Part shown: positions 365 to 29,099 of the stretch, piece after piece | Position numbering within the stretch: the first letter of the stretch is position 1 | Layout of the letters: every line of letters starts with the position of its first letter | Origin: Candidatus Electronema aureum | GTDB lineage: Bacteria > Desulfobacterota > Desulfobulbia > Desulfobulbales > Desulfobulbaceae | Reading direction: 5' to 3' | Assembly (NCBI GenBank): GCA_004284765.1 | Contig: NQJD01000001.1 | Location: forward strand, 199,367 to 231,366 | Length of the DNA: 32,000 nucleotides | Notes under the pieces: generated by a model | What the model saw: only the letters and a program-made list of their open reading frames with translations | The model's database searches: none | Told to the model about the DNA's origin: nothing | Program-made: the position numbers and the translations under genes

Positions 365-1018
365 TCAGAAGCGCGGGTTTTGCTGCGCAGGCGCGGTAGG
401 CAAAGGAACTGCCGAGGGTTGTATTTGATTCTGCATTTGTCCGGTCATTTGCTGCATCATCTGTGCCTGCATTTTCTGCTGAACAGCAGTCATGTCAGGC
501 ATTCCCTGTGGCATCTGCCCACCCGTCTGCTGGGCTGCACCCTGCATTTGGTTAGCTGGGGAAGCGGCTTGCATTTGTCCGGTCATCTGCTGCATCATCT
601 GCGCCTGCATTTTCTGCTGAATGGCAGTCATGTCAGGCATTCCTTGTGGCATTTGCCCGCCTGCTTGCTGGGCTGCACCCTGCATTTGATTAGCTGGAGA
701 AGCCGCTTGCATTTGTCCGGTCATCTGCTGCATCATCTGCGCCTGCATTTTTTGCTGAATGGCAGTCACGTCAGGCATTCCCTGTGGCATTTGCCCGCCT
801 GCCTGCTGGGCAGCACCCTGCATTTGATTAGCTGGAGAAGCTGCTTGCATTTGTCCGGTCATCTGCTGCATCATTTGCGCCTGCATTTTTTGCTGAATGG
901 CAGTCATGTCAGGCATTCCTTGGCTCGACTGCTGGGCATCTGCGGAGCCAACCAGCAAAAGGCAGCACGCTGTTGCTACCCCTATCGTCAATTTGCCTGC
1001 GGACTGTTTTCTGTTCAT
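365..1018 (-). CDS. secreted Met/Gln-rich tandem-repeat protein (217 aa), function unknown
   Basis: I prefer the internal ATG at 1018: a GGGAGA-type RBS lies just upstream (complement of ~1025-1031), and the track ORF extension to 1084 has no signal peptide. The product starts MNRKQSAGKLTIGVATACCLLLVGSADA, a Sec signal peptide. It continues with about 3.5 copies of the 46-aa unit GMPDMTAIQQKMQAQMMQQMTGQMQAASPANQMQGAAQQAGGQMPQ. By hand count each unit has 9 Met and 14 Gln, and no His or Cys. Confidence 0.7.
   Translation of the reverse strand: MNRKQSAGKLTIGVATACCLLLVGSADAQQSSQGMPDMTAIQQKMQAQMMQQMTGQMQAASPANQMQGAAQQAGGQMPQGMPDVTAIQQKMQAQMMQQMTGQMQAASPANQMQGAAQQAGGQMPQGMPDMTAIQQKMQAQMMQQMTGQMQAASPANQMQGAAQQTGGQMPQGMPDMTAVQQKMQAQMMQQMTGQMQNQIQPSAVPLPTAPAQQNPRF
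431..919 (-). repeat. tandem 138-nt (46-codon) coding repeat, about 3.5 copies
   Basis: The motif gcatttgtccggtcat recurs at about 434, 571 and 709, and again about 138 nt further on. The copies are near-identical at nucleotide level. Confidence 0.9.
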
Positions 1019-4180: not shown

Positions 4181-5410
4181 TTAGTCCTGAACCTTGCCCG
4201 CCAGAGACATCTGCGCCTCAAGCGGCAGCTCCTCGCCCGTCAGCAGTTTGTTCCAATACACCCATTTGAACATCATCTTGCCCCAGTGGTTGGTCTTGGA
4301 TTCGCCGAGCAGAGAGAACGGCCCAAGACCAGGCAGCGGGAACTTGCCCGGTAGCGGCTCGTACTTGTAGTTGAAGTCAATCAGGGATGCCTTGCCGAAG
4401 CCGGTCTCGATGAAGCAGTTGGAATGGCCGTCGTAATCAGGACGGATCGGCTCGCCGTTGATCTCGCGCAGGAAGTTCTCCACCATGATTTCGGCGGAGA
4501 AATGGGCGACCGAACCGGCCTTGGAGGTGGGGATGGTCGTGTTGTCGCCGAGTACGTACATGTTCTCGTGATGCTCTGCCTTCAGGGTGTGGTTGTTCGT
4601 CTTGACATACCCGACTTCATCCATCGAAACCTTGGAGTTGACCAAGTAGCGCGCGCCGACGTTGGGCGGAATGGACACCAGCAGATCCCACTCGATTTCA
4701 TCCCCGGCTGCGGAAATCAGCTTGTTGTTGGCGCAGTCAACTTCGGCGAGAATGAACTCGGCGGTGACCCGGATGTTCTTCTCCTTCATCACCTTGGTGA
4801 AGTAGGCGGAGGCCTTGGGCTTGGTGAAGGCACCAGTCATCGGGGTGACAAAGTGAATATCTATCTTGTCACGCACGCCGCGCTCGGTGAAGTACCAGTC
4901 GGCAAGGTAAACGAATTCCAGCGGCGCAACCGGGCATTTGTAGGGAAATTCGGCAATATTGAGCACCATCTTGCCGCTGTTGAAGGTGCGCAGCCGCTTC
5001 TCCAGATTCACTGCCCCTGCCAAGGTGTAGAAATCAAATATCTTGGTCTGCCAGCCGTCCATCATGCCGGGAATTTCCTGCGGCGCGAGGCTCACGCCGG
5101 TGCAGACAATGATCTTGTCATATTCATATTTGCCCGCTGTGGTTTCCACGGTCTGCGTCGCAGTGTCAACGCCGACAATCTCATCCACAACAAAGTTGAT
5201 TCCTTTGCCGATGAACTCGCTGCGCGGGCGGACAAGCTCCTCCGCCTTGTACATGCCAAAGGGGACAAAAATCAGGCCGGGTTGATACACATGCCGGTCG
5301 TCTTTGTCAATGATTGTGATCGACCACTCGTTGCGGTCCAGCCGCTTGCGCAGTTTGTTGGCAACCATCGTCCCTGCGCAACCTGCGCCAAGAATCACTA
5401 ACTTTTTCAT
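4181..5410 (-). CDS. NAD(P)/FAD-dependent oxidoreductase, sulfide:quinone oxidoreductase-like family (409 aa)
   Basis: The N-terminus carries a Rossmann dinucleotide motif, MKKLVILGAGCAGT. FPYKCPVAPLEF and YVLGDN motifs typical of SQR/FCSD-type flavoproteins are present. I chose the ATG at 5410, which has a GGAGAAAGG RBS; the track start at 5476 adds 22 unlikely residues. Confidence 0.85.
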   Translation of the reverse strand: MKKLVILGAGCAGTMVANKLRKRLDRNEWSITIIDKDDRHVYQPGLIFVPFGMYKAEELVRPRSEFIGKGINFVVDEIVGVDTATQTVETTAGKYEYDKIIVCTGVSLAPQEIPGMMDGWQTKIFDFYTLAGAVNLEKRLRTFNSGKMVLNIAEFPYKCPVAPLEFVYLADWYFTERGVRDKIDIHFVTPMTGAFTKPKASAYFTKVMKEKNIRVTAEFILAEVDCANNKLISAAGDEIEWDLLVSIPPNVGARYLVNSKVSMDEVGYVKTNNHTLKAEHHENMYVLGDNTTIPTSKAGSVAHFSAEIMVENFLREINGEPIRPDYDGHSNCFIETGFGKASLIDFNYKYEPLPGKFPLPGLGPFSLLGESKTNHWGKMMFKWVYWNKLLTGEELPLEAQMSLAGKVQD

Positions 5411-5491
5411 CTTGCCTTTCTCCGTTGAACATTCTGTAGAGCTGACCAATATAATTGCGCCTTTCACGCACGACATCTCACCTAAAGCTAT

Positions 5492-5632: not shown

Positions 5633-5668
5633 AAAAAACAAAAAGGCAGACCAACGCCTGCCTTTTTT
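5633..5668 (-). terminator. rho-independent (bidirectional) terminator
   Basis: The stem is GGCAG (5645-5649) / CTGCC (5658-5662) with an 8-nt loop. An A-run (5633-5644) and a T-run (5663-5668) flank it. Read on the minus strand, the hairpin is followed by TTTTTGTTTTTT. It lies about 20-25 nt after the stop of the clpB-like remnant. Confidence 0.6.
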
Positions 5669-5686
5669 CGAGAGAGATACAAACAG

Positions 5687-5764
5687 TCAGCCTTGCTTTC
5701 TGAAACCCAACCTCCCTTCCGGCAATTCCAAGGCCAGCGGGTCTTCGATCTGCTTGTCAATCCA
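5687..5764 (-). pseudogene. displaced 3'-end remnant of a clpB-like gene (25 codons plus stop)
   Basis: The minus-strand translation is [25 protein letters not shown]. The intact ClpB C-terminus in this window is [38 protein letters not shown]. At nucleotide level, 5726-5752 versus 13861-13887 match at 24 of 27 nt by hand alignment. The remnant begins immediately after the hicB stop codon. Confidence 0.75.
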
Positions 5765-5980
5765 TCACGCAAAAGCTAAACGGCGGCCTTTGGGAACGGG
5801 AATCGGCTCATTGCATTCTTCGGCAGTTTTGAGCCACAAGTTCATTGCCTCTTTAACATTTGCCAAAGCTGAGTCGTATGTGTCGCCGTGCGCCATGCAG
5901 CCAGGAAGCTCTGGGATATCGGCAATAAATGCCATGTCCTCATCGCTCCAGTAAATAATAACTTCATATTTAGCGATCAT
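5765..5980 (-). CDS. hicB: HicB-family antitoxin (71 aa)
   Basis: MIAKYEVIIYWSDEDMAFIADIPELPGCMAHGDTYDSALANVKEAMNLWL... is typical of the HicB/UPF0150 N-terminal fold. ATG at 5980 with a GGAGA RBS; the track start at 5992 is a TTG. The start overlaps the hicA stop. Confidence 0.85.
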   Translation of the reverse strand: MIAKYEVIIYWSDEDMAFIADIPELPGCMAHGDTYDSALANVKEAMNLWLKTAEECNEPIPVPKGRRLAFA

Positions 5981-6216
5981 TTTGTTCTCCAAGCCGGTAT
6001 TTCAGGATGAGATTACGAATTTGCCTGACCTGATACGGTTTCGCCTTGCTGCCGTCTTTCTGTAAATTCGGCTTTTCCTCGATGCCATCTTTCCGAAAAA
6101 TGTGGTGGCTGCCAAAGATGCGCAATTCAAAACCTAAGTAAAGCAGCAGGTTGACTAACTCTGAGAATGAAATGTTGGCATCGCTACTGGTTAAAGACCC
6201 TCAGAACAATTCTCAT
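5970..6216 (-). pseudogene. hicA: HicA-family toxin gene, apparently frameshifted near the 5' end
   Basis: The frame 6200-5970 encodes GSLTSSDANISFSELVNLLLYLGFELRIFGSHHIFRKDGIEEKPNLQKDGSKAKPYQVRQIRNLILKYRLGEQNDR*, which is HicA-like with a GSHH motif. This frame has no start codon after the in-frame TGA at 6203-6201. The only upstream ATG (6216) is in another frame and reads MRIVLRVFNQ*. From 6216 to 5970 is 247 nt, one more than a multiple of 3. Confidence 0.6.
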
Positions 6217-6240
6217 GGTACGCTGCTCCCGTCAGCCTGT

Positions 6241-6275
6241 CAAAACAAAATGGGGCAGACGCAAGGTCTGCCCAT
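6241..6275 (-). terminator. rho-independent terminator after the large surface-protein gene
   Basis: The stem is GGGCAGAC (6253-6260) / GTCTGCCC (6266-6273) with a 5-nt loop. On the minus strand it is followed by ATTTTGTTTTG (complement of 6241-6251). It lies about 90 nt downstream of the stop at 6365. Confidence 0.6.
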
Positions 6276-6364
6276 TTGGGCGTGGCGAGAAAAAATCGAC
6301 ACCAGTCAAGTCTGTTTCAGCATCGCCGCGCAGGAGTTAAAGACTGCGTGAGCAAACAGCGATT

Positions 6365-9300
6365 TCAAGGAGATATTTCACCACAGGGCGTAACTGTTCC
6401 ATCCCTGCCGATGATAACAGAATTCCCCGTTGCTGTTTCAGCAAGCACCAGCTTGTCGCCCGGCTCTGCAAAGCCTTGGAAGCTGCCGTCTCGGTCATAG
6501 ACTGCGGCGCAGGAGGTGTTGCTTGTTGCGGTGTTTTCTGCTGCGTCGATGGTGAATGCCACTGGATATTGATTGCAGGTGCCGATAAACATTAGATTGC
6601 TGTCCTGATTAAAGCTCATGGCCCGGCCAAGATCATCGGATACGCCGCCGCCTTGGCGCAGCCATTCTGGTGTGCCGTCGGCGTGGTATTTGATCATGAA
6701 CAAATCACTCTCCCCGAAGCTGGTCAGGCTTTTAAAGACGGTATCTGCGTCATAAAAATCACAGGACTGGCGGAAGTCTCCGGCAACATAAACCTGTCCT
6801 GCATCATCCGCCGCAACAGCTCGGCCTGTGCAGTTGCTGGTGCCGTTTGCCTTCTGCGCCCAGCGGACATCACCGCTGTCCGCCCTGAATTCGGCAACGA
6901 AGAAGTTTGTTGCATCGCCGGTCGTCAGGGTGATGGGAGATGTGCCGCTGAAGGTGATTGAGTCCTCGTAATAACCGGTTGCCAGCACAGAATCCGCGCC
7001 TTTTGCTGCGACAGACAAGACACTGCCTGACCCGCCGTCAACCTGTTTGGCCCAGACCAAAGTTCCGTCCAACGTGTATTGAGCAATAAATGGATCCGTA
7101 TTGCCATCTATAGAATTCAAGGTGGTGGCCGATGCGCCGCTGCCCAAATTCAGGGTGCCGGTAAACATGCCGCCGATATGCAAACGGCCCGCCGCGCTGT
7201 CCACAGCCAGACTTTCTCCGTAGTCATCCCACTGTCCACCTGCCCGTTCCGCCCATGCCAGCGCACCGGCAGGAGTGTATTTGGCTACAAAAATGTCATG
7301 AGCGCAACCGGGTTCTCCGCTTAAAGTTTTAGCGACAGCAGTTCCATTGAAGAAATTCATTTCAGAATAATACGAGCCGCTGAGATAGAGATTGCCTGTC
7401 GTGTCTACTGCGGCCTTGGACTCGATAATACCATACTCGCTTGAGATGGCCTTTCGTGCCCAGAGTAACTCACCAGAAGCGGTGTACTTTGCAATGTAGA
7501 GCGCATGTTTTTCGGTAGGTGCAGTCAGGGTGACAGGTGCATCCGTTCCCAGCGTGATGCTGCTTTGGAAGGTACCCACCGCAAAAATATTTCCTGCGTC
7601 ATCACGGGCTAACGCTTGGACACCTGGAGGCAGCGCCCATGAATCGCAGTTGACCTTCTCTTGCACCGTGACATACACGCTTGCAGAGGAGGTGCCACGG
7701 CTTGGACTTTTCACCGTGTACGTCAAGGAGTCTGAGCCGGTGAAGCCGAAGTCCGGCGTATAGGTCAGCGTGTTGTCTCCGTTGATTAAAGCCGTGCCGT
7801 GGGCTGGGTCGCTGACGGCAATGACCTCCAACGTTTCGCCTGCTGGCGGATTGTCATTTGTCAGCACCGCAATGAGCACTGCAACGTTTTCTTTTGTGAC
7901 CGCCGCATCATCCACGGCCAGAGGCGTTTCCGCATTTGCATCAGCAATGGTGAAATATCCGTCGCTCAGGTCAGTGGTTGCCGGATCTGCGGAATGCGTC
8001 ACTCTGATTTGATAATCTCCGCCTTCGGAAAGATCGGCTGGGACATGCCAAGAATAGCTGTTGTCGGATGCGCTGACTGTTTGAACGGCTTGCTCAATGC
8101 TTCGATAAAAGTTGCCCGCCTTGAGCAGGTCAATATTCACCGTGCCGTTGAAACTGCTTTTCCAGATGATGTTTCGATTTGTGCCAAAACCGAAGACATC
8201 GCCATTGACCGGAGAGAGCACAGTCAAAGTTTCTGGCCATGTGATGCTGAAGCGGTCGCTGTCATCAAAGATTGAACTGTCTGCATTGCTGGTGATCTTG
8301 ATCCAGTAATGATCTTCCGGCTGAAGTTCCGGTACAGTCCAAGTATAAGAACCAGTGTTCGCCGCCGCCGTCGCAATGGTTTGATTGAAGCTGACGCTCT
8401 TATACAGATCAATCTTGACTGTGCCGCCAATATTGCTGGTCCATTGAATGGTCTGCTGTCTGTCGGACAGCCAAGACGTTGCGGCATTGGGTGTGAGCAC
8501 GGTCATGCTTTGATCAGCAGCAACCTGAATGCTGACCGAAGCCTGGTTGTTGCTTTCGTTGGCTTCCAGCACATTGTCGGCATAATCGGCATAGAAGATG
8601 ATATACTGCTGACCAACGGGCAGGTTTTTGGGAAGGGTCAGAGTTTGTGAAAAAGACTGGCTCTGGCCGGGCAGCAGGGAACCGAAATAATCTGTACTCA
8701 GCAGGATGTCTGCGCTGTCCCAAGCGGCATCAGCGGAGAGATAATAACCGATACGTGAGGCAGCCAAAGTGCCGGTGCCGCCGATGTTGGTCAGAGTTGC
8801 ATTGACGGTGACGCTTTGACCGGGAGCGACATTTCCCGGAGAAACCCTCGGATTGCTGACAGCCAGATCAGCGCCCGTTCTCACCTCAATGCGGACAGCC
8901 GCCGCATTGTTGCCTTCATTGGCCTCAGCAACAGTGTTTTGGTCATCTGCCCGGAAGATCAAGTGATAATCCCCGGAAGCCAAGTGTGCCGGAATGGTGA
9001 TTTCCTGTTCAACAAAGGCGTTGCGTCCGTCAATGATGCTGCTGAACTGTTGCCTATACAGCAGAGTGTCTGCCGCATCCCACGTGCTGCCGTTAGTGGA
9101 AAGATAACAGGCTAATGCGGATGCGTCTGCCGGGCCGCTGCCGATATTGGAAACTCTGGCCCGTGTCAATGTTGTTGCGCCCGGCCCAAGCTGGAAGGGT
9201 TTGGCTTCAGCAGTGTCAACGATCAGGTCAGCGGCACCTTTGTTATGGTTGCCGGGGCCGGGGCAAGTGGCTTTCAGGAGCCAATCCACCAGCCATTTGC

Positions 9301-10087
9301 CATAGAGATCTTCGCGCTGTTCAATGCTGATGTTCTGATTTGTGCTGAAACCAGCGTTGAAGTAAATATCAATATTGCCGTATCCGGCATGATAAATTTC
9401 ACTTTTTCCGATCAATCGGGTCAGGGCGGCATCTTTATAGATATTCACTGCCGTGCCGTTGACAAGGAGTCTGACTGTGCCGCTTGATTTCCAGAGCAGA
9501 TTGCCGGTTGTTGGCTGGATGCTGACATGGCCGACTGGCACAGCGTCAGCAGTTGTTTCTATTGTCAGGCGATAGGTGGCGTGGTATTTATTCTGCCAAT
9601 CTTGGGGGCTGACTCTGTATGTGCAATTTTGGAGAACTGGGGGATTTCCTTTGCCGTTTGTTGCGCCGAGTACGGTGAGGGTGAATTTGTCGGTTCCCAC
9701 GTAGCCGAGGGTATCGCCGACTTGGGCGGTGATGGTGACATCGCCCGGTGTGTTTGGGGCAGTGTAGGTGACGGTGCTGTAGTCGGGGTAGCTTGGGTGC
9801 AGGGTGAAGGTGCCTTGAGCAGCGTACCAATAGAAAAACGGCTCGCCGTTGTGTTTAGTATCTACTGTGGCGTAAGCGGTCAGGTCAACGGTTTCGCCGG
9901 GTTTGATTTTGTTGAGGCTTTCAATGCGTACTGACGGGACCTTTACGCCGGGAACGGGCATTTGCTGTTCGTAATTATTGCCTATCCTATCAGCCAGACT
10001 CTCATTTCCAAGAAGTAGTGCAATCAATACGGTAATGAGAGATATTGAAATTAACAAAAATTGTGTAGGATTTTTTCTATAATTCAT
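6365..10087 (-). CDS. large secreted/cell-surface protein with Ig-like, CARDB x2, Kre9/KNH-like beta-sandwich x2, cadherin-like and C-terminal beta-propeller (SBBP-type) repeats (1240 aa)
   Basis: ATG at 10087 gives MNYRKNPTQFLLISISLITVLIALLLGNESLA, a signal anchor. There are two CARDB-like segments (ADLIVDTAEAKP...EANEGNNAAAVRIEV and ADLAVSNPRVSPG...EANESNNQASVSIQV). There are two roughly 90-aa units (TVLTPNAATSW...IDLYK... and TVLSPVNGDVF...IDLLK...). A cadherin-like segment reads PLAVDDAAVTKENVAVLIAVLTNDN...LTYTPDFGFTGSDSLTYTV. Repeated D..GN.Y..G.F motifs (ARDDAGNIFAVGTF, VDTTGNLYLSGSY, ADDAGQVYVAGDF) are typical of SBBP propeller repeats. Confidence 0.85.
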   Translation of the reverse strand: MNYRKNPTQFLLISISLITVLIALLLGNESLADRIGNNYEQQMPVPGVKVPSVRIESLNKIKPGETVDLTAYATVDTKHNGEPFFYWYAAQGTFTLHPSYPDYSTVTYTAPNTPGDVTITAQVGDTLGYVGTDKFTLTVLGATNGKGNPPVLQNCTYRVSPQDWQNKYHATYRLTIETTADAVPVGHVSIQPTTGNLLWKSSGTVRLLVNGTAVNIYKDAALTRLIGKSEIYHAGYGNIDIYFNAGFSTNQNISIEQREDLYGKWLVDWLLKATCPGPGNHNKGAADLIVDTAEAKPFQLGPGATTLTRARVSNIGSGPADASALACYLSTNGSTWDAADTLLYRQQFSSIIDGRNAFVEQEITIPAHLASGDYHLIFRADDQNTVAEANEGNNAAAVRIEVRTGADLAVSNPRVSPGNVAPGQSVTVNATLTNIGGTGTLAASRIGYYLSADAAWDSADILLSTDYFGSLLPGQSQSFSQTLTLPKNLPVGQQYIIFYADYADNVLEANESNNQASVSIQVAADQSMTVLTPNAATSWLSDRQQTIQWTSNIGGTVKIDLYKSVSFNQTIATAAANTGSYTWTVPELQPEDHYWIKITSNADSSIFDDSDRFSITWPETLTVLSPVNGDVFGFGTNRNIIWKSSFNGTVNIDLLKAGNFYRSIEQAVQTVSASDNSYSWHVPADLSEGGDYQIRVTHSADPATTDLSDGYFTIADANAETPLAVDDAAVTKENVAVLIAVLTNDNPPAGETLEVIAVSDPAHGTALINGDNTLTYTPDFGFTGSDSLTYTVKSPSRGTSSASVYVTVQEKVNCDSWALPPGVQALARDDAGNIFAVGTFQSSITLGTDAPVTLTAPTEKHALYIAKYTASGELLWARKAISSEYGIIESKAAVDTTGNLYLSGSYYSEMNFFNGTAVAKTLSGEPGCAHDIFVAKYTPAGALAWAERAGGQWDDYGESLAVDSAAGRLHIGGMFTGTLNLGSGASATTLNSIDGNTDPFIAQYTLDGTLVWAKQVDGGSGSVLSVAAKGADSVLATGYYEDSITFSGTSPITLTTGDATNFFVAEFRADSGDVRWAQKANGTSNCTGRAVAADDAGQVYVAGDFRQSCDFYDADTVFKSLTSFGESDLFMIKYHADGTPEWLRQGGGVSDDLGRAMSFNQDSNLMFIGTCNQYPVAFTIDAAENTATSNTSCAAVYDRDGSFQGFAEPGDKLVLAETATGNSVIIGRDGTVTPCGEISP

Positions 10088-10137
10088 ATCTGTATCCCTA
10101 ATAGAAAGAAATAATCTGATAAAATTCCGAATAGATC

Positions 10138-12843
10138 TCAATGGGTTATCGACCGATAGAGTGTATAGGCATCATAAACGGCTTTCACTGTTTCTTGTCG
10201 TGAAGCAGGAATTTCTTTATTCATCTCATCTACTATATCGGAGACATTAGAGATAGATATGAACTTTAAACCATTATAAAATGGTTTAATTGTAAGCTGG
10301 TTGGCTTTGTCTATGTACCGATAAAACCAGTAGTATTCGATTGATCTATGTGCGACTGTTCCTGGGCCTGTCATAGCAATTCCAAGAGCAGGACCTGTAG
10401 AAACTGGTTCTAATGGAAAAAAGGTTAATACAACCATCTTGAGCATTTCAGCTCTACTTACAATTTTTCCCGGAAGAAATGGACCTGGTGAGTATCCCTC
10501 TGTTCCATCAGGATAGCCACTGACCGCGCCGTAACCGAATAGTTTCCCAATGTATTTTTCATACCACTCTTCTGTACCAATTATATCACCGAACTGTTCG
10601 GATAATTGCTGGTGTGTTGTAGGCTTCAGTACCAGCTTTATTCCGGCTGCTTCTGCTGCCTCTACTATTATCTTGGAAGCTTCAGCTCTGTTGAGATGAT
10701 CATGAGGTTTGAACGTCCCATCTGGATGACCTTGAATAATGCCTTTTTCGTATAAACTGGCTATTGCGTTGATGTACGGATTACGCTGATTAACATCAGG
10801 GAATATCTCTTTGTTAAGGCTGGATAGTAAGAAATTAGATGGAGCGATTTGAGAAGCTATTGATAGAAATAGAGGTTCCAACCTGAGTTCGTTCCCCTCT
10901 AACTCCTGATCATCTGGCCAAAAACTTATTCCACCAGTTGTTAATGCTGAGTTTATATAAGACTTGCGATCAGAATTATTCTCGAAGCCAGTTTCATGAG
11001 GCGAGTTGTATTCAAGTAAACTGTCGCTGCCTTCCTCAGAGTAAGCTCCACTCTTCATGCGGTCATGATGATAGTCCATAAAAAGCACATGAGTTGCATA
11101 CCCATCGCCCTCGTATTCGTTGTCACTATATCGAAATATTTTTATGGTTGAGTTGCCATTATCAAGCCCTTCCTCTTTCCATGGGGCATACATAGTTACT
11201 TGGTTTGATTGTGACTGTTGTACCAATTCGTCAAATGAATATCTTAAATCTAACAATTGTCCACTAATTGGTACCGGCCCATCGTTTAGGTATCCGTAAT
11301 GTCCACGAAAGAGTGGGTTGAAATCAAAAAGCTCACCAAGGTGCTGAACACCATCTTCTGCCACTCCCATTATAATATTACTCCAACCATCTGTTACATG
11401 GTTGTTTTCATTCCCGCCATTTGCATTAATAGCTCCAAAGAGTATCAGCTTACGTTTGTAATCATTTGGCATATCCTGATATTTTAAACTGATAATGGTA
11501 AGCCAAGGGTTTGGTGTTAAAGGTAAAACAGCATCTATTGACCAATTTCTGTTTAATGGGCTTAGAGTTCCTATTAAATATTCATATTCAGCGTTTTCTC
11601 TTATTTTAAAAACTGGTAATGTTATATTTTTCCCCTTTTCTTTGAATCCCATTTTTAACTCACTTATTTCTTTTCTGAAAAACATATCAAAATTATATGT
11701 TTCATTTATACGAAAAGATGTTTCGTTAAAAAATGGAGATGGCATTCCTTTAACCTTTATATTTCCATAAAAAAAATCTACAGAATCATCATTACTATTA
11801 TATATATCCATCTGTTTAATACCCAATTCTCCTACAAGATCGACATTTGCTACTCCAAAATTATTTGTAATATCTTCAAATACATTCCTACTTATTGCAG
11901 AATTGAATATAGCATCATAATTATCCCATTGAATATCGTTGGCACCTAATGTGTATAAATCTCTTCCAGCTATTGGATTTGTATTACCTGAAACCCATCC
12001 TGGAACAGCAGCAGGACTTCCATGATGAACTCCGTCCAAGAGAATTATCTTTTCTGCATAATCAGGGGAAAGCTTGTGTTCTTCAAAGGCAGACCTGACG
12101 AGAATGGTACCCATGCTATGCGCAACAAATATCGCACCATTTTTCTTTTTAAAGTGTTCTCTCAGCTCAGGGATTGCATTCTCAGAACGTAACATATTTT
12201 TCAATATTGCAGCATTGAACGTAACGTGCTTATAGCTTGGGTATTTATATACATATATTTTGAAGCGGCTTTTAAGGTTATGGTACTGTGTGAAAAATTC
12301 AATGAAGTTTTTCCAATATTCTTCAGGGCTCAACTCAACATCAGTTTGTGCGTACGGGTTAGCGGTGTCGTTGGCCCCTTGCCACCCATGTACCAATATT
12401 ATCGGAGTACGATCTCCCAATTTCTTGCCCGTCTCTGTCGGAAGAAGCTCCCCTTTTATTTTATCTGCTAACGTAGGGTGTTGATCTTTTAAGGAAAAAT
12501 AATAGTAATCTTCAGGTGAATACAGATAGTGAGTCTTGGTGTTGGATATATATTTGTATTCTCCAGTTTTTTCAATTCTTTCATATTCTTCTGGTGGCCA
12601 GTTGTTAAAAATTCTGTAGTCATCTACCTCGTTATATGTATCCTCCATAATCCATTTTGTCCCATAAATATTTGTACCATCGGGATCAATACTCCTAGTT
12701 GCTTCAAGGGTCATGTATGAGTAATAGCAGTTATTGTCTATGGTGGAGCGTTTGACACCGTCGCCAGCGTATAGAGCTTGGGGCATTAAACTGATGATGA
12801 AAGAAACAACGAAGAATCGAGCGACTGATTTGACTGAAAACAT
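10138..12843 (-). CDS. secreted alpha/beta-hydrolase (lipase/esterase-like) with C-terminal SLH domains (901 aa)
   Basis: ATG at 12843 gives MFSVKSVARFFVVSFIISLMPQALYA, a signal peptide. An oxyanion-type PIILVHGW and a nucleophile elbow FVAHSMGT (G/A-x-S-x-G) are present. The C-terminus has FPDVNQRNPYINAIASLYEKGIIQGHPDGTFKPHDHLNRAEASKII and a second ...GAVSGYPDG...VSRAEMLKMVV, which are S-layer-homology-like. The gene is very AT-rich; a hand-counted 60-nt sample at 11701 is 17/60 GC. Confidence 0.8.
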   Translation of the reverse strand: MFSVKSVARFFVVSFIISLMPQALYAGDGVKRSTIDNNCYYSYMTLEATRSIDPDGTNIYGTKWIMEDTYNEVDDYRIFNNWPPEEYERIEKTGEYKYISNTKTHYLYSPEDYYYFSLKDQHPTLADKIKGELLPTETGKKLGDRTPIILVHGWQGANDTANPYAQTDVELSPEEYWKNFIEFFTQYHNLKSRFKIYVYKYPSYKHVTFNAAILKNMLRSENAIPELREHFKKKNGAIFVAHSMGTILVRSAFEEHKLSPDYAEKIILLDGVHHGSPAAVPGWVSGNTNPIAGRDLYTLGANDIQWDNYDAIFNSAISRNVFEDITNNFGVANVDLVGELGIKQMDIYNSNDDSVDFFYGNIKVKGMPSPFFNETSFRINETYNFDMFFRKEISELKMGFKEKGKNITLPVFKIRENAEYEYLIGTLSPLNRNWSIDAVLPLTPNPWLTIISLKYQDMPNDYKRKLILFGAINANGGNENNHVTDGWSNIIMGVAEDGVQHLGELFDFNPLFRGHYGYLNDGPVPISGQLLDLRYSFDELVQQSQSNQVTMYAPWKEEGLDNGNSTIKIFRYSDNEYEGDGYATHVLFMDYHHDRMKSGAYSEEGSDSLLEYNSPHETGFENNSDRKSYINSALTTGGISFWPDDQELEGNELRLEPLFLSIASQIAPSNFLLSSLNKEIFPDVNQRNPYINAIASLYEKGIIQGHPDGTFKPHDHLNRAEASKIIVEAAEAAGIKLVLKPTTHQQLSEQFGDIIGTEEWYEKYIGKLFGYGAVSGYPDGTEGYSPGPFLPGKIVSRAEMLKMVVLTFFPLEPVSTGPALGIAMTGPGTVAHRSIEYYWFYRYIDKANQLTIKPFYNGLKFISISNVSDIVDEMNKEIPASRQETVKAVYDAYTLYRSITH

Positions 12844-12875
12844 GATATAACCTTTCGATATAGTAACGTCTTGAT

Positions 12876-13064
12876 TTAAAAACGAGATATTACGCACATC
12901 CTCGCCTGATGCTCCTGCGCAACAAAGCTCTTCGCAAAGGAATCCGGCTTCCCCTTCCCTCTGAGAAAATCCTGCTCAAACAGCGTCAGATCAACTGCCG
13001 CCCATGCACTGCTGAGAGACAAACAACCCAAAAGAAGAGATGCTGCCATTACGATGCGTTTCAT
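12876..13064 (-). CDS. small signal-peptide ORF (62 aa), possibly the 5' stub of a disrupted secreted-protein gene
   Basis: A strong GGAGGA RBS lies just upstream of the ATG at 13064. MKRIVMAASLLLGCLSLSSAWA is a Sec signal peptide. The last ~7 codons (MCVISRF*) cross into the AT-rich block that starts near 12895. Confidence 0.45.
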   Translation of the reverse strand: MKRIVMAASLLLGCLSLSSAWAAVDLTLFEQDFLRGKGKPDSFAKSFVAQEHQARMCVISRF

Positions 13065-13735
13065 GCTTTTCCTCCGTTATTTTAAATCTGCACAATGATG
13101 ATAAACTGCCAGCGACTTAGGAAAGGTGAAACAAGCCGCAGAGACGGGAAGGTGCCCCGTTTGATGCCGTGAAAAGAGAATGCTGATTTGCTCTGTTAAT
13201 CCTTTTGGTTAAGCAAAAACGCCGCTTCGCCCCTGCACAGCAGGACGCAAACATCTTGCCGAGAAATTGACGCAGACATCACCTGCCGCAATCAATCGTC
13301 CGGCGAGTAAAGACAGAAATTCAGCACCAAAGCAATCGGCCTGAAGATATTTTTGAACGGGAAATGCAAAGAATCGGCAGCCGAAAATCGGCCTGCCGGT
13401 AAGGTAGGAAATTGTACCCTGAGCGGGCACTTTTCTTGTGGAACTCATAACATATTTTCCGGTATTCAGAAGTGAAAGCAGGCAACCCGGCTGTCTCTCA
13501 AGAGAGACCCTTGGCTTTCCGACACCGCCTCGCGACGGCTGTGGCTTTATCAACTTTCCCATTCTGACCGGAAAGTTAAGGCACCTACTCAGGATAAGTA
13601 TTGCCATTTGTTATGATAGACCATCATAAAACTTCTGATTCACGCTTGTCAAGCATTTTTACAGAAAAAATTCTTCAGAAAAATTGATGCGCATCGCCTT
13701 GCTGAGAAGGAAGAGAAACTGCGAGGCATAACGTG

Positions 13736-13762
13736 CAAGGGCGACCATGATGATCGCCCTTG
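13736..13762 (-). terminator. hairpin downstream of clpB (weak terminator candidate, no U-tract)
   Basis: An 8-bp stem, AAGGGCGA / TCGCCCTT, with a 9-nt loop, lies about 20 nt after the clpB stop. It is not followed by a T-run on the minus strand, so its function is uncertain. Confidence 0.3.
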
Positions 13763-13782
13763 ACGAGTTACTTTTTTGCTTC

Positions 13783-16368
13783 TCACTTCCTAAACACCAG
13801 CCCCACCTCCCCCTTATCAATCACAACTCTGTCCCCCTCTCTGAACCTGCCTTCCAATATCTCCAAAGCCAGCGGGTCTTCAATCTGCCTTTGAATAGCC
13901 CGCTTGAGCGGCCGGGCACCGTAGGCGGGATCATAGCCAGCATCCACCAAGAAGAGCTTGGCCGCCTCGGTCAATTCAACAGAGAACTTGCGGTTGGCAA
14001 GACGTTTCGCCATTCTCGCAATCTGAATATCGACGATCTGCATCAAGTCCGCACGGGTCAGGCCGCTGAAGGTGATAATTTCATCAACCCGGTTGAGGAA
14101 TTCAGGCCGGAACTGCCGGTGCAGCAATTCATCCACCTGCCGCCGCATCAGTTCCTGGTTATTCTGGCCTAGCTCCATAATGATCTGACTGCCAAGATTG
14201 GAAGTCATGATGATGATCGTGTTCTTGAAGGAAACAGTGCGGCCTTTGCCGTCAGTCATGCGGCCATCATCGAGAGCTTGCAGCAGGACGTTGAAGACAT
14301 CCGGGTGGGCCTTTTCAATTTCATCCAAGAGCACGACAGAATAAGGCCGCCTGCGCACAGCTTCGGTCAGCATTCCGCCTTCATCGTAGCCGACATAGCC
14401 AGGAGGTGCGCCGATCAGCCGGGCCACGGAGTGCTTCTCCATGTATTCGCTCATGTCAATGCGGATCATGGCTTGCTCGGAATCAAAGAGGAAATCAGCC
14501 AGACTGCGGGCCAGCTCGGTTTTGCCGACACCGGTCGGGCCAAGGAAAATGAAGGAGCCGAGCGGCCTGTCCGGGTCTTGCAATCCGGCACGGGCGCGGC
14601 GCACCGCATTGGCAACCGAGACGATGGCCTCTTTCTGGCCGATCACGCGCCGGGCGAGCTGCTTTTCGGCCTGAACCAGCTTTTCCTTTTCGCCTTCCAG
14701 CAGCTTGTCCACCGGCACGCCCGTCCACTTAGCAACAACCGCCGCCACGTCCTCGGCACTGACCTCCTCCTTGAGCATGTGGTGATCCTGCTGCACCTCA
14801 GCCAGCCTGCGGTTTTCGGCCTCCATCTCCTTTTCCAAGGCGACAATCCGGCCATAGCGGATCTCCGCCACTTTGCTCAGATCACCGGCCCGCTCCGCCC
14901 GCTGTTCCTCGCTGCGGGCCTCGTCAATCTTGGTTTTAATCGCCCGGATGCGCTGGATGACATCCTTTTCCAGCTGCCACTGGCCTTTCATGCCATTGAG
15001 CTTGTCGTTCAGTTCGGCCAAGTCTTTTTTGAGCCGAGCAAGCTGCTCCTGCGAGGCCTTGTCCTTCTCCTTTTTCAACGCCTCCTGCTCGATCTCCATC
15101 TTGATCCGCTTGCGTTCCAGCTCGTCAATCTCGGTGGGCATGGAGTCAATCTCGATGCGCAGGCGCGACGCGGCTTCATCAATCAGATCAATGGCTTTGT
15201 CCGGCAAAAAACGGTCGCTGATGTAGCGGCTGGAGAGGACAACCGCCGCCACGGTGGCCGCATCCTGAATGCGCACGCCGTGATGGACCTCGTATTTTTC
15301 CTTGATGCCGCGCAGGATGGCGATGGTGTCCTCCTCGCTCGGCTCCTGCACCAAAACCGGCTGGAAGCGGCGTTCGAGGGCCGCGTCTTTCTCAATGTAT
15401 TTGCGGTATTCGTCGAGAGTGGTCGCGCCGACGCAGTGCAACTCGCCGCGAGCCAAGGCGGGCTTGAGCATGTTGGAGGCATCCATCGAGCCTTCCGCCG
15501 CGCCCGCGCCGACAAGGGTGTGAATCTCATCAATAAAGAGGATGATCTCCCCGGCTTTTTTCTCCACCTCTTTCAAAACCGCCTTGAGCCGGTCTTCAAA
15601 TTCGCCCCGGTATTTCGCGCCCGCGATGAGCAGGCCGAGATCAAGGGCCAGCACCTGCTTGCCGCGCAGCGAGGCCGGGATGTCGCCGTTGACGATGCGC
15701 TGCGCCAAACCCTCGACAATCGCGGTCTTGCCCACGCCCGGCTCGCCGATCAGCACCGGGTTGTTCTTGGTGCGGCGACTGAGAACCTGAATAATCCGGC
15801 GCACTTCTTCGTCGCGGCCAATGACCGGATCGAGCTTGCCGCGCCGCGCAACATCGGTGAGGTTGCGGGCGTATTTTTCGAGGGCTTGGTATTTGTCTTC
15901 CGGGTATTGGTCGGTCACGCGCTGGTTGCCGCGAATGCTGCTTAATGCTTGAAGAAAACCGGCGGCAGTGATGCCAAGCCGCTCCAGCATTTTCGCAGCG
16001 GCAAGGTGGCCGCTTTTGAGGATGGCGAGGAACAGGTGCTCCTGGCTGACGTATTCGTCCTGCATGGCCGAGGCTTCTTTGAACGCCTGATCAAGCAGCT
16101 TGCTGAAATTCTGAGACGGATACACTTGGCCCGCGCCGGAGCCGCTGACCTTGGGCAGCTTGTCAATGAGCTGCTGGGTTTCGCTGAGGACGGCGGCAGG
16201 GTTCGCGCCCATTTTTTGCAAAACCGGAACCGCAACGCCTTCCGGCTGCTCCAGCACCGCCTTAATCAGGTGCTCCGGCTGAATTTCCTGATTGCCGAAC
16301 TGCTCGGCCAAGCTGACGGTGGCCTGCACCGCTTCCTGCGATTTGACAGTGAATTTGTCGAGTTTCAT
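13783..16368 (-). CDS. clpB: ATP-dependent chaperone ClpB (861 aa)
   Basis: Full-length two-AAA+ architecture: an N-domain ([14 protein letters not shown]...), Walker [10 protein letters not shown] and GPTGVGKTE, a long coiled-coil middle domain and a C-terminal D2 small domain. The sequence is unmistakably Hsp104/ClpB. A GGAGG RBS is present. Confidence 0.97.
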
Positions 16369-24782: not shown

Positions 24783-25430
24783 ATGTCTTCCCCGTCCTTG
24801 GAGTTTGCCCTTGTCCGCATCCTGATTAACGATCAAAGCCCGCGCAAGCCAGTTGGCGCGGGCTTTCTTGTCACACCGCGCCATCTGCTGACCTGCGCCC
24901 ATGTCATCAATGACGCACTTGGGAGGAAGCAGAATGCGGCTGAACAGCCTGATCTCCCCGTTTTTCTCGACTTCCCCTTGCTGCCCGGTCAGCCGCTGCT
25001 TCAGGCGAAGATTCTGCATTGGTTTCCTCTCCGGGATGATTCCACCGTCGGCGAGCTGGAGGACATCGCGGTGCTGGAGCTTCCCGCTGATGCAGTCCTG
25101 CCCGCCGGAGTTCAGCCTGCGCCCTTTGAGGTGCTGGACAACAAAGCCTCGTTTCTTGACGATGCGGTCAGAATGTGCGGCTTTCCCGCAGGCGTTGATG
25201 ACGGCACCTACGCCAACGGCAGGCTGCAAGGCCGGAACGCCAAGGGCTGGGTGGAAATTCACCATCAGGACAGCAACATTGTTGAGCAGGGCTTCAGCGG
25301 CACGGCAGTATGGGCGGTGAAGGAGAACGCGGTTTGCGGCATGACCGTGAGCATGTTGAGCAAACGGGATGCCACAATTGCTTATATGATTCCCGCCCTC
25401 ACTTTGCTCAAGGCGTTGCCCGCCATTGAT
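24783..25430 (+). other. trypsin-like (chymotrypsin-fold) protease domain of the giant protein (approximate boundaries)
   Basis: His40 / Asp94 / Ser172 lie in canonical sequence contexts and spacing for S1-type Trypsin_2-like peptidases. Confidence 0.75.
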
Positions 25431-28400: not shown

Positions 28401-29099
28401 ACTATCTATAGCGCAACCTTCAGTCCTGACGGCAGACGGATCGCTTCAGCTTCCGAGGATAAGACTGTGCGGATATGGGACGCTGCAACTGGCAAAGTTA
28501 TGGCCGTCTTTAAAGGGCATGAAGGTCGAGTCAACAGCGCAGCCTTCAGTCCTGACGGCAGACGGATCGCTTCAGCTTCCGAGGATAAGACTGTGCGGAT
28601 ATGGGATGCTGCAACTGGCAAAGTGATGGCTGTCTTCAAAGGGCATGAAAGTTATGTCAATAGCGCGGCCTTCAGTCCTGACGGTAAACGGATTGCTTCG
28701 GCTTCTTACGATAAAACGGTGCGGATATGGGATATCAAGAGCGGCAAACTGTTAGCCGTCCTCAATGGGCACGAAAAGCCTGTTAGCAGCACATCTTTCA
28801 ATCCTGACGGTACAAGGGTCGCTTCTGCTTCTAGGGACAATACGGTGCGAATATGGGATTTGAAGCTCTGTACGCTTTTTCTGCAAAATTTTGATAAGCC
28901 CACGCCTTTCTACTTTACCTTCATGGAAGCGGTGAAATTCCTCTGGCAGGTTAAACTGGACGGCCTTGAGTTTGTGTCAACAGACCGCCGCACCGCAGCG
29001 GACATGGAAAAATTCGGCAGCCTGCTTGCGCCCCCGCCGCCCGGTCAAAGCAAATTCGACCAAGTGCTTGAGTGGGCGGAGAAGCAGCAGCCAAAGTGA
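24783..29099 (+). CDS. trypsin-like serine protease / STAND (nSTAND/NACHT-type) P-loop NTPase / TM helix / 14x WD40 repeat protein (1438 aa)
   Basis: AGGAGG RBS at 24772-24777. Protease triad contexts are H40 (LLTCAHV), D94 (EDIAVLEL) and S172 (QGFSGTAVW). NTPase motifs are NPYRGLEAFREKDARFYFGRQ, Walker A GASGSGKSS (25569-25595) and Walker B LLLIVDQFEELF, followed by the helical HEALIRCWRTLRQWVDKEREFLVWREKL module. The hydrophobic helix is MIALAAGLMIAIALSVFAVAQW. Fourteen 42-aa GH...WD units follow, then a 79-aa tail. Confidence 0.9.
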   Translation: MSSPSLEFALVRILINDQSPRKPVGAGFLVTPRHLLTCAHVINDALGRKQNAAEQPDLPVFLDFPLLPGQPLLQAKILHWFPLRDDSTVGELEDIAVLELPADAVLPAGVQPAPFEVLDNKASFLDDAVRMCGFPAGVDDGTYANGRLQGRNAKGWVEIHHQDSNIVEQGFSGTAVWAVKENAVCGMTVSMLSKRDATIAYMIPALTLLKALPAIDAFNRSFNPYRGLEAFREKDARFYFGRQEAVELIRQAALRQSFTAVIGASGSGKSSAVFAGLVPLLKASKTDRWLCAACRPKSQPFDELAACLIPFLYDDALEQIKKAKDCAADLAAGKLSLPDLLRPVLGRNSGAKLLLIVDQFEELFTLNPDKALVRRYIEELLAARQAEGCAALITMRADFLGTAIAYDLFAEALNNCPPIMLPPMGGQGLREAVEQPAALLHVSFEPGLADLIAEDVGSEPGSLPLLEFCLTQLWEKQERRQISHAAYKASGGVQGALAGHADKVLKEFDEQQVRQIFLKLVRPGQGTEDTRQVAALEQFSPEQCGLIQKLADKDRRLLVTSGDADGKEKNVEVVHEALIRCWRTLRQWVDKEREFLVWREKLKMLLKQWQESGHDEGALLRGLPLAEAAQWRESHAGYLAGAKDELEFIAASEQLRESEWLAREAAKEEKERQRKRSMIALAAGLMIAIALSVFAVAQWQKTAQQTIAANYNLAKAFEKEGLRSLERADKEGTDAYKKALLFGYAAFEQKIDPRKSALDQSSVDLLFAPEIFNAALAELTIFGGHENFINSAVFSPDDTRIASASYDKTARIWDIETGRELKVLKGHNETINSVAFSPDGRRIASASHDKTVRIWDVATGKELTVLKGHEEAVNSVAFSPDGRQIASASEDKTVRIWDAITGKELTVFKGHEKLLFSVAFSPDGKRIASASEDKTVRIWDAITGKELAVLKGHEEAVNSVAFSPDGRQIASASWDKTVRIWDAITGKESAVLKGHEDLVISAAFNPDGRRIASASHDKTVRIWDAETGKEIAVFHHDEAVRSAAFSRDGKRIASASYDKTVRIWDAETGSDRYLLKGHEYAVYSASFSSNGRWIVSASYDKTVRIWNAETGRNLAVLRGHESVVRSATFSPDGKWIASASEDKTVRIWGLPTGKVLAVLKGHEDHVTSVAFSPDSKRIASASDDKTVRIWNAATGKVLTVLKGHEKTIYSATFSPDGRRIASASEDKTVRIWDAATGKVMAVFKGHEGRVNSAAFSPDGRRIASASEDKTVRIWDAATGKVMAVFKGHESYVNSAAFSPDGKRIASASYDKTVRIWDIKSGKLLAVLNGHEKPVSSTSFNPDGTRVASASRDNTVRIWDLKLCTLFLQNFDKPTPFYFTFMEAVKFLWQVKLDGLEFVSTDRRTAADMEKFGSLLAPPPPGQSKFDQVLEWAEKQQPK
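25449..26560 (+). other. STAND NTPase module (approximate boundaries)
   Basis: It starts at the NPYRGL motif (N223). Walker A and Walker B are as above, followed by a winged-helix/helical extension ending around HEALIRCW. Confidence 0.75.
26814..26879 (+). other. predicted transmembrane helix between the NTPase and WD40 modules
   Basis: This is a 22-residue uncharged hydrophobic stretch, M678-W699. It is preceded by the strongly basic KEEKERQRKRS and followed by QKTAQQ. Confidence 0.6.
27132..28862 (+). repeat. array of 14 tandem 126-nt WD40-coding units (two predicted 7-bladed propellers)
   Basis: The period is 126 nt. The core ...FSPDG+RIASAS.DKTVRIWD..TGK....LKGHE... repeats 14 times. 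Units 11 and 12 (28411-28523 versus 28537-28649) differ at 5 of 113 nt by hand alignment. Confidence 0.95.

What the first reader, a model, noticed from the sequence alone, without database searches (positions are those of the whole stretch)
5687..5764. Displaced clpB 3'-end remnant marks the far junction of an ~8-kb insertion into the end of clpB
Immediately after the hicB stop, the minus strand encodes [25 protein letters not shown]. The C-terminus of the intact ClpB 8 kb away is ...[19 protein letters not shown]...GLVFRK*. The DNA identity is 24/27 nt for 5726-5752 versus 13861-13887, and the differences are mostly synonymous.

A canonical hairpin plus U-tract terminator (5633-5668) follows the remnant. 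The present clpB stop is followed only by a hairpin with no U-tract.

The simplest reading is that an element integrated into the 3' end of clpB and supplied a replacement 3' end. This is what happens with elements that target the 3' ends of genes. The original end and its terminator were pushed to 5687-5764. The inserted segment (~5765-13782) carries hicAB at its distal edge, the surface-protein/lipase genes and a 700-nt non-coding stretch next to clpB. It carries no integrase. The only integrase (1381-2520) lies outside these boundaries.
Basis: seen in the sequence. Interest (0 to 1): 0.65.

Follow-up and report, generated by a model that had tools for sequence, protein, structure and literature searches.

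The report
Displaced clpB tail marks foreign insertion
A 78-base leftover of the original end of the chaperone gene clpB, still joined to its own terminator, lies 8 kb from the working gene in a cable bacterium, so foreign DNA carrying a substitute gene end was spliced in; this is ordinary genome archaeology, but relatives show the same thing happening repeatedly around clpB.

Summary
Window 5687-5764 (minus strand) is a decayed copy of the last ~38 codons of clpB. Window 5634-5716 is 89% identical to the clpB stop plus intrinsic terminator of a related Candidatus Electronema genome (L081). A third Electronema contig (L170) has the same layout: intact clpB, insert, clpB tail remnant, the same terminator.

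The core reading is right: the native end and terminator were displaced, and the present end is a replacement.

The proposed mechanism, one integrase-borne element targeting a gene's 3' end, is poorly supported:
- No integrase lies in or beside any of four such inserts.
- The only integrase in the window is separated from the remnant by core cable-bacterial genes (type III SQR and DUF1641).
- Remnant start points in relatives vary (clpB nt 847, about codon 814, codon 824 twice).
- One relative carries a 1.75-kb clpB fragment right after the same hicAB cassette.
- The window's clpB is itself mosaic.
- The "8-kb element" is layered. hicA is 5'-truncated, the lipase gene has low GC and no close relative, and the "700-nt non-coding stretch" holds a c-di-GMP-I riboswitch.

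Homology-driven recombination using clpB as anchor fits best. Interest is modest.

The parts
5687..5764 (-). clpB 3'-end remnant (pseudogene fragment). Its first part (5709-5761) repeats clpB codons about 824-841. Its last part (5687-5716) is the L081-type tail. It carries a 45-48-nt in-frame deletion, a lost stop (TAA to CAA) and a Leu-to-Pro change.
5633..5668 (-). Native clpB intrinsic terminator (stem 5640-5667 plus U-tract). It now lies behind hicB. Compared with L081, one stem pair has changed from A-U to G-C.
5765..5992 (-). hicB antitoxin gene. Its stop codon sits directly against the remnant and in the same reading frame.
5970..6185 (-). hicA toxin gene, 5'-truncated. Homology to the V4 hicA starts at codon 15, with in-frame stops upstream. 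6185 is a recombination break-point.
6253..6273 (-). Terminator-like hairpin that ends the surface-protein operon.
6365..10141 (-). 1258-aa surface protein (CARDB, Big_9/cadherin-like and beta-propeller repeats); cargo.
10138..12897 (-). SLH-domain alpha/beta-hydrolase (lipase-like). GC is 35-41% against about 55% in the flanks. No homologue above 57% identity in 5.8 billion proteins; cargo.
12876..13064 (-). 62-aa ORF whose N-terminus looks like a signal peptide (by eye).
13478..13555 (-). c-di-GMP-I riboswitch aptamer inside the "700-nt non-coding stretch". A promoter-like site lies upstream at 13623-13652 (11 of 12 consensus positions).
13720..13770 (-). Strong hairpin without a U-tract, directly after the present clpB stop. 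This sequence was not found in any of the 10 other Electronema loci searched by BLASTN (L081-L085, L169-L172).
13783..13896 (-). Present (replacement) clpB tail, 861-aa allele type. It is the second copy of the direct repeat (13844-13896).
13783..16368 (-). Intact clpB (861 aa). It is mosaic: the first 600-850 nt or so resemble L081 and the rest do not.

Best explanation
**What it is.** Window 5687-5764 is a dead fragment of this organism's own original clpB 3' end. It is still attached to the original clpB terminator (5633-5668).

**How it got there.** Foreign DNA that carried its own copy of the clpB 3' portion recombined into clpB. The gene stayed whole with a donor-type tail, and the resident tail and terminator were pushed downstream. 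The step I think most likely is homologous recombination inside clpB, with the conserved gene acting as the anchor. The far side was then closed either by an illegitimate join or by Campbell-type integration of a circle. I do not think an integrase acting at a fixed att site is the most likely route.

**Later changes.**
- The resident copy was cut down to 78 nt.
- It lost 48 nt between two AGGTT repeats, and its stop codon mutated.
- The cargo next to clpB was replaced by a surface-protein operon under a c-di-GMP riboswitch. That join cut off the start of hicA.

**Present role.** The remnant does nothing now. Its terminator probably ends hicAB transcription.

**Shown versus inferred.** Shown: the identity of the remnant and terminator, the layered cargo, and the recurrence in relatives. 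Inferred: the recombination mechanism and the order of events.
For: **Remnant and terminator are native**
- Window 5634-5716 matches the clpB stop and terminator of L081 at 89% over 83 nt.
- L170 has intact clpB, a 480-nt insert, a tail remnant, the same terminator, and then L081-like downstream DNA.
- The remnant carries the extra AGG codon typical of the L081-type 862-aa allele. The present tail is the 861-aa type.
- The 48-nt gap lies between AGGTT repeats in the L081 sequence.

**Homology-driven rather than integrase-driven**
- In V4 (L083) the same hicAB cassette (93% nt identity) is followed by a 1.75-kb clpB fragment (nt 847 to the end). That fragment is only 93.6% identical to V4's own clpB. 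It has no stop in 575 codons, and its non-synonymous fraction is 0.10, like working alleles.
- Mirror-image 5' clpB fragments, with promoter, lie upstream of an intact clpB in L169 and L172.
- Remnant start points differ: nt 847, about codon 814, and codon 824 twice.
- There is no recombinase gene in any of the four inserts.
- There is no residual homology and no shared arm beyond the boundary.
- The window's clpB has a significant break at nt 818-962 (maximum chi-square, permutation p <= 0.005 in 3 of 4 triplets; p = 0.098 in the fourth). It resembles L081 before the break and not after, although the remnant's tail and terminator resemble L081.
- None of 80 diverse bacterial clpB loci has such fragments, against 5 of 9 Electronema loci.

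**Layering**
- hicA is truncated at 6185.
- The lipase gene has low GC and no close relative.
- The closed Electronema aureum GS genome is reported to be rich in insertion sequences (PMC10030654).
Against: - The window and L170 remnants begin within 3 nt of each other (clpB codon 823/824). Each is directly preceded by an in-frame TGA, and the cargo is unrelated. A fixed recombination site would predict exactly this.
- The mosaic signal in clpB is not sharp, and it could come from unrelated older recombination.
- The last 400 nt of clpB are more divergent in all pairs of Electronema genomes, not only in pairs with the window. The "foreign tail" therefore cannot be shown from divergence alone.
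- No donor arrangement (clpB followed by this hairpin and riboswitch operon) and no true empty site in a close strain was found.
- The hicB stop lies next to a clpB fragment in two species at different break-points. One is old and one is young, and a simple one-event model does not explain this.
Confidence: 0.6

Rival explanations
1. Decayed site-specific integrative element. An integrase-encoding element whose attP carried the last ~38 codons of clpB integrated at an att core near codon 824, as phage 21 and e14 do at icd. It later lost its integrase and exchanged cargo.
For: - The direct repeat of the gene tail lies at both ends of the insert.
- The gene is kept intact by a different tail allele.
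- The window and L170 share the remnant start point within 3 nt, with unrelated cargo.
- A tyrosine recombinase lies 3.2 kb beyond the remnant.
- Phage 21, e14 and NC-SV use a site inside icd (PMC12803456).
Against: - There is no integrase inside or next to the inserts of the window, L170, L172 or L083.
- The window's integrase is separated from the remnant by SQR-DUF1641. That gene pair is conserved in the Electronema and Electrothrix loci examined, and cable bacteria universally encode the SQR (PMC13047784).
- The integrase has no relative in any fetched locus.
- The repeat is only 79% identical, and its longest exact run is 14 nt.
- The L172 remnant starts about 10 codons earlier, and the V4 fragment starts at nt 847.
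- No conserved arm flanks the remnant.
- The clpB mosaic break lies about 1.7 kb from the stop, not 115 nt from it.
Confidence: 0.25
2. Local tandem duplication of the clpB tail region. Unrelated insertions between the two copies followed, and no foreign clpB sequence was ever supplied.
For: It would produce a direct repeat of the tail. Electronema genomes are rich in insertion sequences and heavily rearranged (PMC10030654).
Against: - A tandem duplication would place the native terminator after both copies. The present clpB is instead followed by unrelated sequence starting at the stop codon.
- The two tails belong to different allele classes, 861-aa and 862-aa types.
- The two copies in V4 differ by 6.4%, mostly at synonymous sites. 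That is divergence between lineages, not decay after duplication.
Confidence: 0.08
3. Chance similarity, a functional small ORF coupled to hicB, or an assembly artefact.
For: The protein-level hit alone is weak (tblastn E = 0.003-0.01). hicB and the remnant are in the same reading frame.
Against: - There were no matches in 100 shuffles.
- The tail and terminator independently match L081 with E = 1e-23, and L170 has the same layout.
- In 61 of the 80 distant hicAB loci, those that aligned to the window, homology ends at or just past the hicB stop.
- The remnant is diverged and carries a deletion, so it is not a collapsed assembly repeat.
- A protein identical to the window's ClpB is on record from a 2.94-Mb contig, which suggests a long, contiguous assembly.
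Confidence: 0.03

Closest known systems
Phage 21, e14 and NC-SV prophages integrated inside icd of E. coli. The residual 'icdC' pseudogene is from my own knowledge; that these phages use a site inside icd is cited from PMC12803456.
   Same: The insert sits inside the 3' end of a housekeeping gene. The gene stays intact because the incoming DNA supplies a substitute tail. The original tail survives as a short pseudogene at the far junction.
   Different: Those elements encode their own tyrosine integrase beside the att site and share an exact core. Here there is no integrase, no exact core, and variable break-points in relatives, including a 1.75-kb duplicate. The cargo is not a prophage.
Campbell-type (single-crossover) integration, and homology-facilitated illegitimate recombination of foreign DNA with one homologous anchor (general knowledge: de Vries and Wackernagel type events in naturally transformable bacteria).
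   Same: This route predicts a whole gene plus a truncated second copy, of whatever length the incoming homologous piece had. It predicts copies that differ like alleles of different lineages. It needs no recombinase gene. It predicts both 3' fragments downstream and 5' fragments upstream, and all of these are seen in Electronema.
   Different: DNA uptake or recombination has not been demonstrated in cable bacteria. Microhomology at the illegitimate joins could not be shown. The coincidence of the window and L170 boundaries is not predicted.
Integration hot spots next to conserved genes that collect defence and toxin-antitoxin islands. One example is the ICEs between clpB and hopR in Pseudomonas syringae (PMC12388829).
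   Same: DNA downstream of clpB differs in all nine Electronema loci. It carries CBASS, caspase-STAND, MmeI/Schlafen, M78/Phd-ParE/HicAB or surface-protein genes.
   Different: In P. syringae the elements are ICEs that lie beside clpB. That they use a neighbouring tRNA gene is from my own recollection, not from the text I read. Here the gene's own coding tail is duplicated.

Membership tests
Integrase-mediated element targeting the 3' end of a protein gene (phage 21/e14-icd type) | Direct repeat of the target gene's 3' end at both junctions, with the gene kept intact | tested here: met
   53-nt repeat at 79% identity. clpB is a full 861-aa ORF with all its domains.
Integrase-mediated element targeting the 3' end of a protein gene (phage 21/e14-icd type) | A tyrosine or serine recombinase encoded within the element, usually beside one att site | tested here: not met
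   Pfam finds no recombinase in 5765-13782. The only one (1315-2520) lies beyond the core genes SQR and DUF1641.
Integrase-mediated element targeting the 3' end of a protein gene (phage 21/e14-icd type) | An identical crossover core at both junctions | tested here: not met
   The longest exact run is 14 nt (GAAGACCCGCTGGC), inside a 79% repeat. Decay after an old event could explain this.
Integrase-mediated element targeting the 3' end of a protein gene (phage 21/e14-icd type) | The same site reused by related elements in other genomes | tested here: inconclusive
   L170 shares the boundary within 3 nt. L172 and V4 differ, and no insert has an integrase or a shared arm.
Homology-anchored (Campbell-type or homology-facilitated illegitimate) insertion | Truncated second gene copy of arbitrary length. 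3' fragments downstream or 5' fragments upstream of the whole gene. | tested here: met
   3' fragments starting at nt 847, about codon 814, and codon 824 twice. 5' fragments in L169 and L172.
Homology-anchored (Campbell-type or homology-facilitated illegitimate) insertion | The two copies differ as alleles of different lineages, and the retained gene is mosaic | tested here: met
   V4's full copy versus its fragment: 93.6% identity, mostly synonymous differences. The window's clpB breaks at nt 818-962, p <= 0.005 in 3 of 4 triplets.
Homology-anchored (Campbell-type or homology-facilitated illegitimate) insertion | Microhomology at the illegitimate join | tested here: inconclusive
   The 12 nt between the hicB stop and the clear clpB homology (TGGATTGACAAG) match clpB at only about 6 of 12 positions.
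HicAB type II toxin-antitoxin | An adjacent HicA (PF07927) and HicB (PF15919) gene pair | tested here: met
   HicB E = 6e-11. HicA E = 2.7e-6, 27.8 bits against a cut-off of 27. However, hicA lacks the 14 N-terminal codons present in V4 and has no obvious start codon.
Rho-independent terminator | GC-rich hairpin followed by a U-tract | tested here: met
   5640-5667 plus UUUUUGUUUUUU. One stem pair differs from L081 (A-U to G-C) and remains paired.
c-di-GMP-I riboswitch (RF01051) | Score above the Rfam gathering threshold over the full-length model | tested here: met
   53.9 bits against a threshold of 35, model positions 1-87 of 87, at 13478-13555 on the minus strand.

The most novel reading that the evidence does not exclude
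In Candidatus Electronema, clpB acts as a recurrent landing pad. DNA carrying toxin-antitoxin, defence or surface-protein cargo is captured again and again through recombination within clpB. The process leaves nested clpB fragments, and old remnants may in turn serve as anchors for later captures. Alternatively, an unrecognised integrase-less mobile unit ending at the hicB stop targets clpB near codon 824. Either way, this would be a lineage-specific route of gene gain in uncultured multicellular cable bacteria.
Probability: 0.3. Interest if true: 0.5.

Novelty: new member of a known kind. Interest (0 to 1): 0.33.

Why it matters
On its own, the remnant is a small piece of genome archaeology. 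It dates and delimits a foreign insert, and it shows that the present clpB tail is not the original one. It also explains why clpB now lacks a proper terminator and why hicAB has a good one.

The wider pattern is more useful. Five of nine Electronema clpB loci carry clpB fragments, and every locus has different cargo downstream, including CBASS, caspase-STAND, MmeI and toxin-antitoxin modules. Cable bacteria cannot be grown in pure culture or manipulated genetically, so such scars are some of the few available clues to how they acquire genes. The work also corrects the annotation of the "non-coding" stretch, which holds a c-di-GMP riboswitch in front of a surface-protein operon.

Tried and rejected
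1. **GTDB genome scan with ClpB.** The best hit was only 65% identical, so it gave no close relatives.
2. **Exact-sequence look-ups of the window's ClpB and SQR ORFs.** Nothing was on record. For SQR the ORF start was wrong. For ClpB the same sequence later turned up as P0121.
3. **Metagenome scan with HicB.** The best hit was only 76% identical, and none of the 80 loci had a clpB piece next to hicB. This served only as a negative control.
4. **Search for a third copy of the repeat near the integrase.** None was found, so there is no sign of tandem elements extending to 1315.
5. **Whole-insert BLASTN against plasmid and phage collections.** No match.
6. **Divergence of the tail as proof of foreign origin.** The last 400 nt are more divergent in every pair of genomes, so this is not diagnostic.
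7. **Search for decayed clpB sequence beyond the remnant boundary in the window, L170 and L172.** Scores were no better than shuffled sequence.
8. **Integrase, p97, p157, the lipase and the large surface protein searched against all fetched loci.** No relatives were found.
9. **Literature on clpB as an integration site.** Only the P. syringae islands next to clpB turned up.

Full report
**1. The observation**

The minus strand of 5687-5773 reads [29 protein letters not shown] is the end of hicB. The intact ClpB (13783-16368, minus strand, 861 aa, all ClpB domains) ends [38 protein letters not shown].

A 26-nt pattern covering the shared stretch occurs only at 5727-5752 and 13862-13887. None of 100 shuffles produced a match. 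The repeat extends to 53 nt at 79% identity, 5709-5761 versus 13844-13896 (self-BLASTN E = 1e-5).

The gene content of 5765-13782 and the position of the only recombinase (1315-2520) are also as described.

**2. The organism**

The ClpB is 98% identical to proteins of Candidatus Electronema, the freshwater cable bacteria, and 88% identical to those of Electrothrix. An identical protein is on record from a 2.94-Mb contig.

I fetched eight other Electronema clpB loci: L081, L082, L083 (sp. V4), L084 (sp. VV), L169, L170, L171 and L172 (sp. JM).

**3. What the remnant is**

- **Match to L081.** Window 5634-5716 aligns at 89% over 83 nt (E = 1e-23) with L081 3139-3220. That stretch is the last 24 nt of L081's intact clpB, its TAA stop and the terminator behind it.
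- **Changes in the remnant.** Relative to L081, TAA has become CAA, which is why the remnant reads ...FRKQG*. A 48-nt in-frame piece is missing. In L081 that piece lies between two AGGTT repeats, so the loss looks like a slippage deletion.
- **Allele type.** The remnant keeps the extra AGG codon of the 862-aa allele type (GRLVFRK). The present tail is the 861-aa type (GLVFRK).
- **Terminator stem.** One stem pair differs from L081 (A-U to G-C) and stays paired.
- **A third genome shows the same design.** In L170, intact clpB ends at 2317. A 480-nt AT-rich insert follows. Then comes a complete tail remnant (2799-2912, [37 protein letters not shown]). After it lie the same terminator and another 140 nt or so that match the DNA downstream of L081's clpB.

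The remnant plus terminator is therefore the native end of clpB, displaced.

**4. What lies beyond the remnant**

The SQR-like gene belongs to the type III sulfide:quinone reductase family NF049943. Together with the DUF1641 gene it forms a pair conserved in Electronema and Electrothrix. Cable bacteria are reported to encode this SQR universally (PMC13047784).

In relatives this pair never neighbours clpB. Its flanks differ in every genome. Homology of the window to L081 and L170 stops at 5634-5639. Another break-point therefore lies between the terminator and SQR.

The integrase at 1315-2520 is a generic Xer-like tyrosine recombinase. It has no relative in any fetched locus, and no third copy of the repeat lies near it.

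**5. The insert is layered**

- The block 5765-6185 (hicB and most of hicA) is 93% identical to V4 (L083 15063-15483). Nothing else in the insert is shared with V4.
- Homology starts at hicA codon 15, and stop codons lie upstream in the window. The surface-protein operon was therefore joined on later, at a break inside hicA.
- The lipase/SLH gene has 35-41% GC. Its best relative is 57% identical.
- The "700-nt non-coding stretch" holds a c-di-GMP-I riboswitch (13478-13555, 53.9 bits against a threshold of 35). It lies behind a near-consensus promoter (13623-13652).
- The insert has no similarity to known plasmids or phages.

**6. clpB fragments recur in Electronema**

- **V4.** hicB is followed, after 17 nt, by clpB nt 847 to the end (1.75 kb). 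This fragment is 93.6% identical to V4's own clpB, which is as distant as another species. It has no stop in 575 codons and the same low non-synonymous share as working alleles, so it became a fragment recently. Only its last ~50 nt are damaged, and they carry the 862-type AGG codon.
- **JM (L172).** A 58-nt piece (about codons 814-836) lies 420 nt behind clpB. The insert is related to that of L170.
- **L169 and JM.** These carry a 5' clpB fragment with promoter, followed by a PIN toxin-antitoxin pair, upstream of the whole gene.
- **Controls.** None of 80 clpB loci from other bacteria has such fragments.
- **Downstream cargo.** It differs in all nine loci:
  - caspase-STAND in L081;
  - CBASS in L082;
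  - M78, IS1, Phd and HicAB in V4;
  - M78 and Phd-ParE in VV;
  - HD and MnmA in L169;
  - a small ORF in L170 and JM;
  - Schlafen, CTD10-MC6 and MmeI in L171.

**7. Mechanism**

Evidence for a fixed site:
- The window and L170 remnants start within 3 nt of each other.
- Each is directly preceded by an in-frame TGA.
- Their cargo is unrelated, and no clpB homology remains beyond the boundary.

Evidence against an integrase:
- No insert has a recombinase, an exact core or a shared arm.
- Boundaries differ in JM and V4.
- 1.75 kb is far longer than an att duplication.
- Mirror-image 5' fragments also exist.

The window's clpB itself changes affinity near nt 818-962. Before that point it shares L081-specific states, and after it rarely does (permutation p <= 0.005 in three of four triplets). 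Yet the remnant's tail and terminator resemble L081. This fits a replaced tract of about 1.7 kb, with its break close to nt 847, where the V4 fragment starts.

I therefore favour recombination within clpB as the entry route. I put that at roughly 0.5-0.6. The decayed site-specific element is the main rival at about 0.25.

The higher divergence of the tail cannot be used as evidence, because it is seen in all genome pairs.

**8. Unexplained**

It is unclear why the hicB stop sits against a clpB fragment in two species at different break-points, one old and one young. One possibility is that an old short remnant served as the anchor for a later incoming clpB segment. I could not test this.

**9. 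Verdict**

The finding is real, and its core reading is correct. Leftover tails of this kind beside inserted DNA are well known from phage 21 and e14 at icd. The novelty lies only in the new gene, the new lineage and the recurrence around clpB in cable bacteria.

Noticed in passing
window 13478-13555 (-), promoter-like site at 13623-13652 (-): A c-di-GMP-I riboswitch aptamer (53.9 bits, gathering threshold 35) lies upstream of a small ORF with a signal-peptide-like N-terminus, the SLH/lipase gene and the CARDB/Big_9 surface-protein gene.
   Followed up: partly
window 5970-6260 (-): hicA lacks the 14 N-terminal codons present in the V4 orthologue and has in-frame stops upstream. The toxin may be inactive or may start at a non-standard codon, while hicB is intact.
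   Followed up: partly
L083 15502-17249: Electronema sp. V4 carries a 1.75-kb 5'-truncated second clpB right after hicB. It is 6.4% divergent from the species' own clpB, has no stop in 575 codons, and has a poly-G frameshift only at the very end. An IS copy follows directly.
   Followed up: yes
L169 2085-2880 and L172 5865-6680: 5' clpB fragments (promoter, codons 1-224, plus a piece around codons 319-385), followed by a PIN-domain toxin-antitoxin pair, lie 2-3 kb upstream of the intact clpB in two Electronema genomes.
   Followed up: partly
L082 8059-11087; L081 3223-6818; L171 13863-21032: Directly downstream of clpB, relatives carry defence systems. L082 has CBASS (SAVED-HNH effector plus a DncV-like cyclase). 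L081 has a caspase-like peptidase fused to a STAND NTPase. L171 has Schlafen/AlbA, CTD10-MC6 and an MmeI-type enzyme. The position looks like a defence-island hot spot.
   Followed up: no
ClpB proteins P0001, P0002, P0121-P0133: The last 40 residues hold 15-26% of all differences (about 20% on average) among the closest Electronema ClpB proteins (96-98% identical to the window's), although they make up under 5% of the length. The last 400 nt of the gene are 4-7 points more divergent than the rest in every genome pair.
   Followed up: partly
window 432-922 (ORF 365-1084, -): Three and a half tandem copies of a 138-nt unit (93% identical) lie inside a 239-aa low-complexity ORF with an apparent signal peptide.
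   Followed up: no
window 27100-28860 (ORF 24783-29099, +): There is a long array of diverged ~126-nt tandem repeats (71-76% identity) inside a 1438-aa ORF.
   Followed up: no
window 10138-12897 (-): The SLH-domain lipase-like gene has 35-41% GC in a roughly 55% GC neighbourhood, and its best homologue among 5.8 billion proteins is 57% identical. This points to recent foreign origin from an unsampled source.
   Followed up: partly
window 4181-5476 (-): The SQR matches the NCBIfam model named "type III SQR, selenoprotein subtype", yet the ORF here is uninterrupted. I did not check whether the usual selenocysteine position is a cysteine. The true start is probably 22 codons inside the longest ORF, because homologues are 409 aa long.
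   Followed up: no
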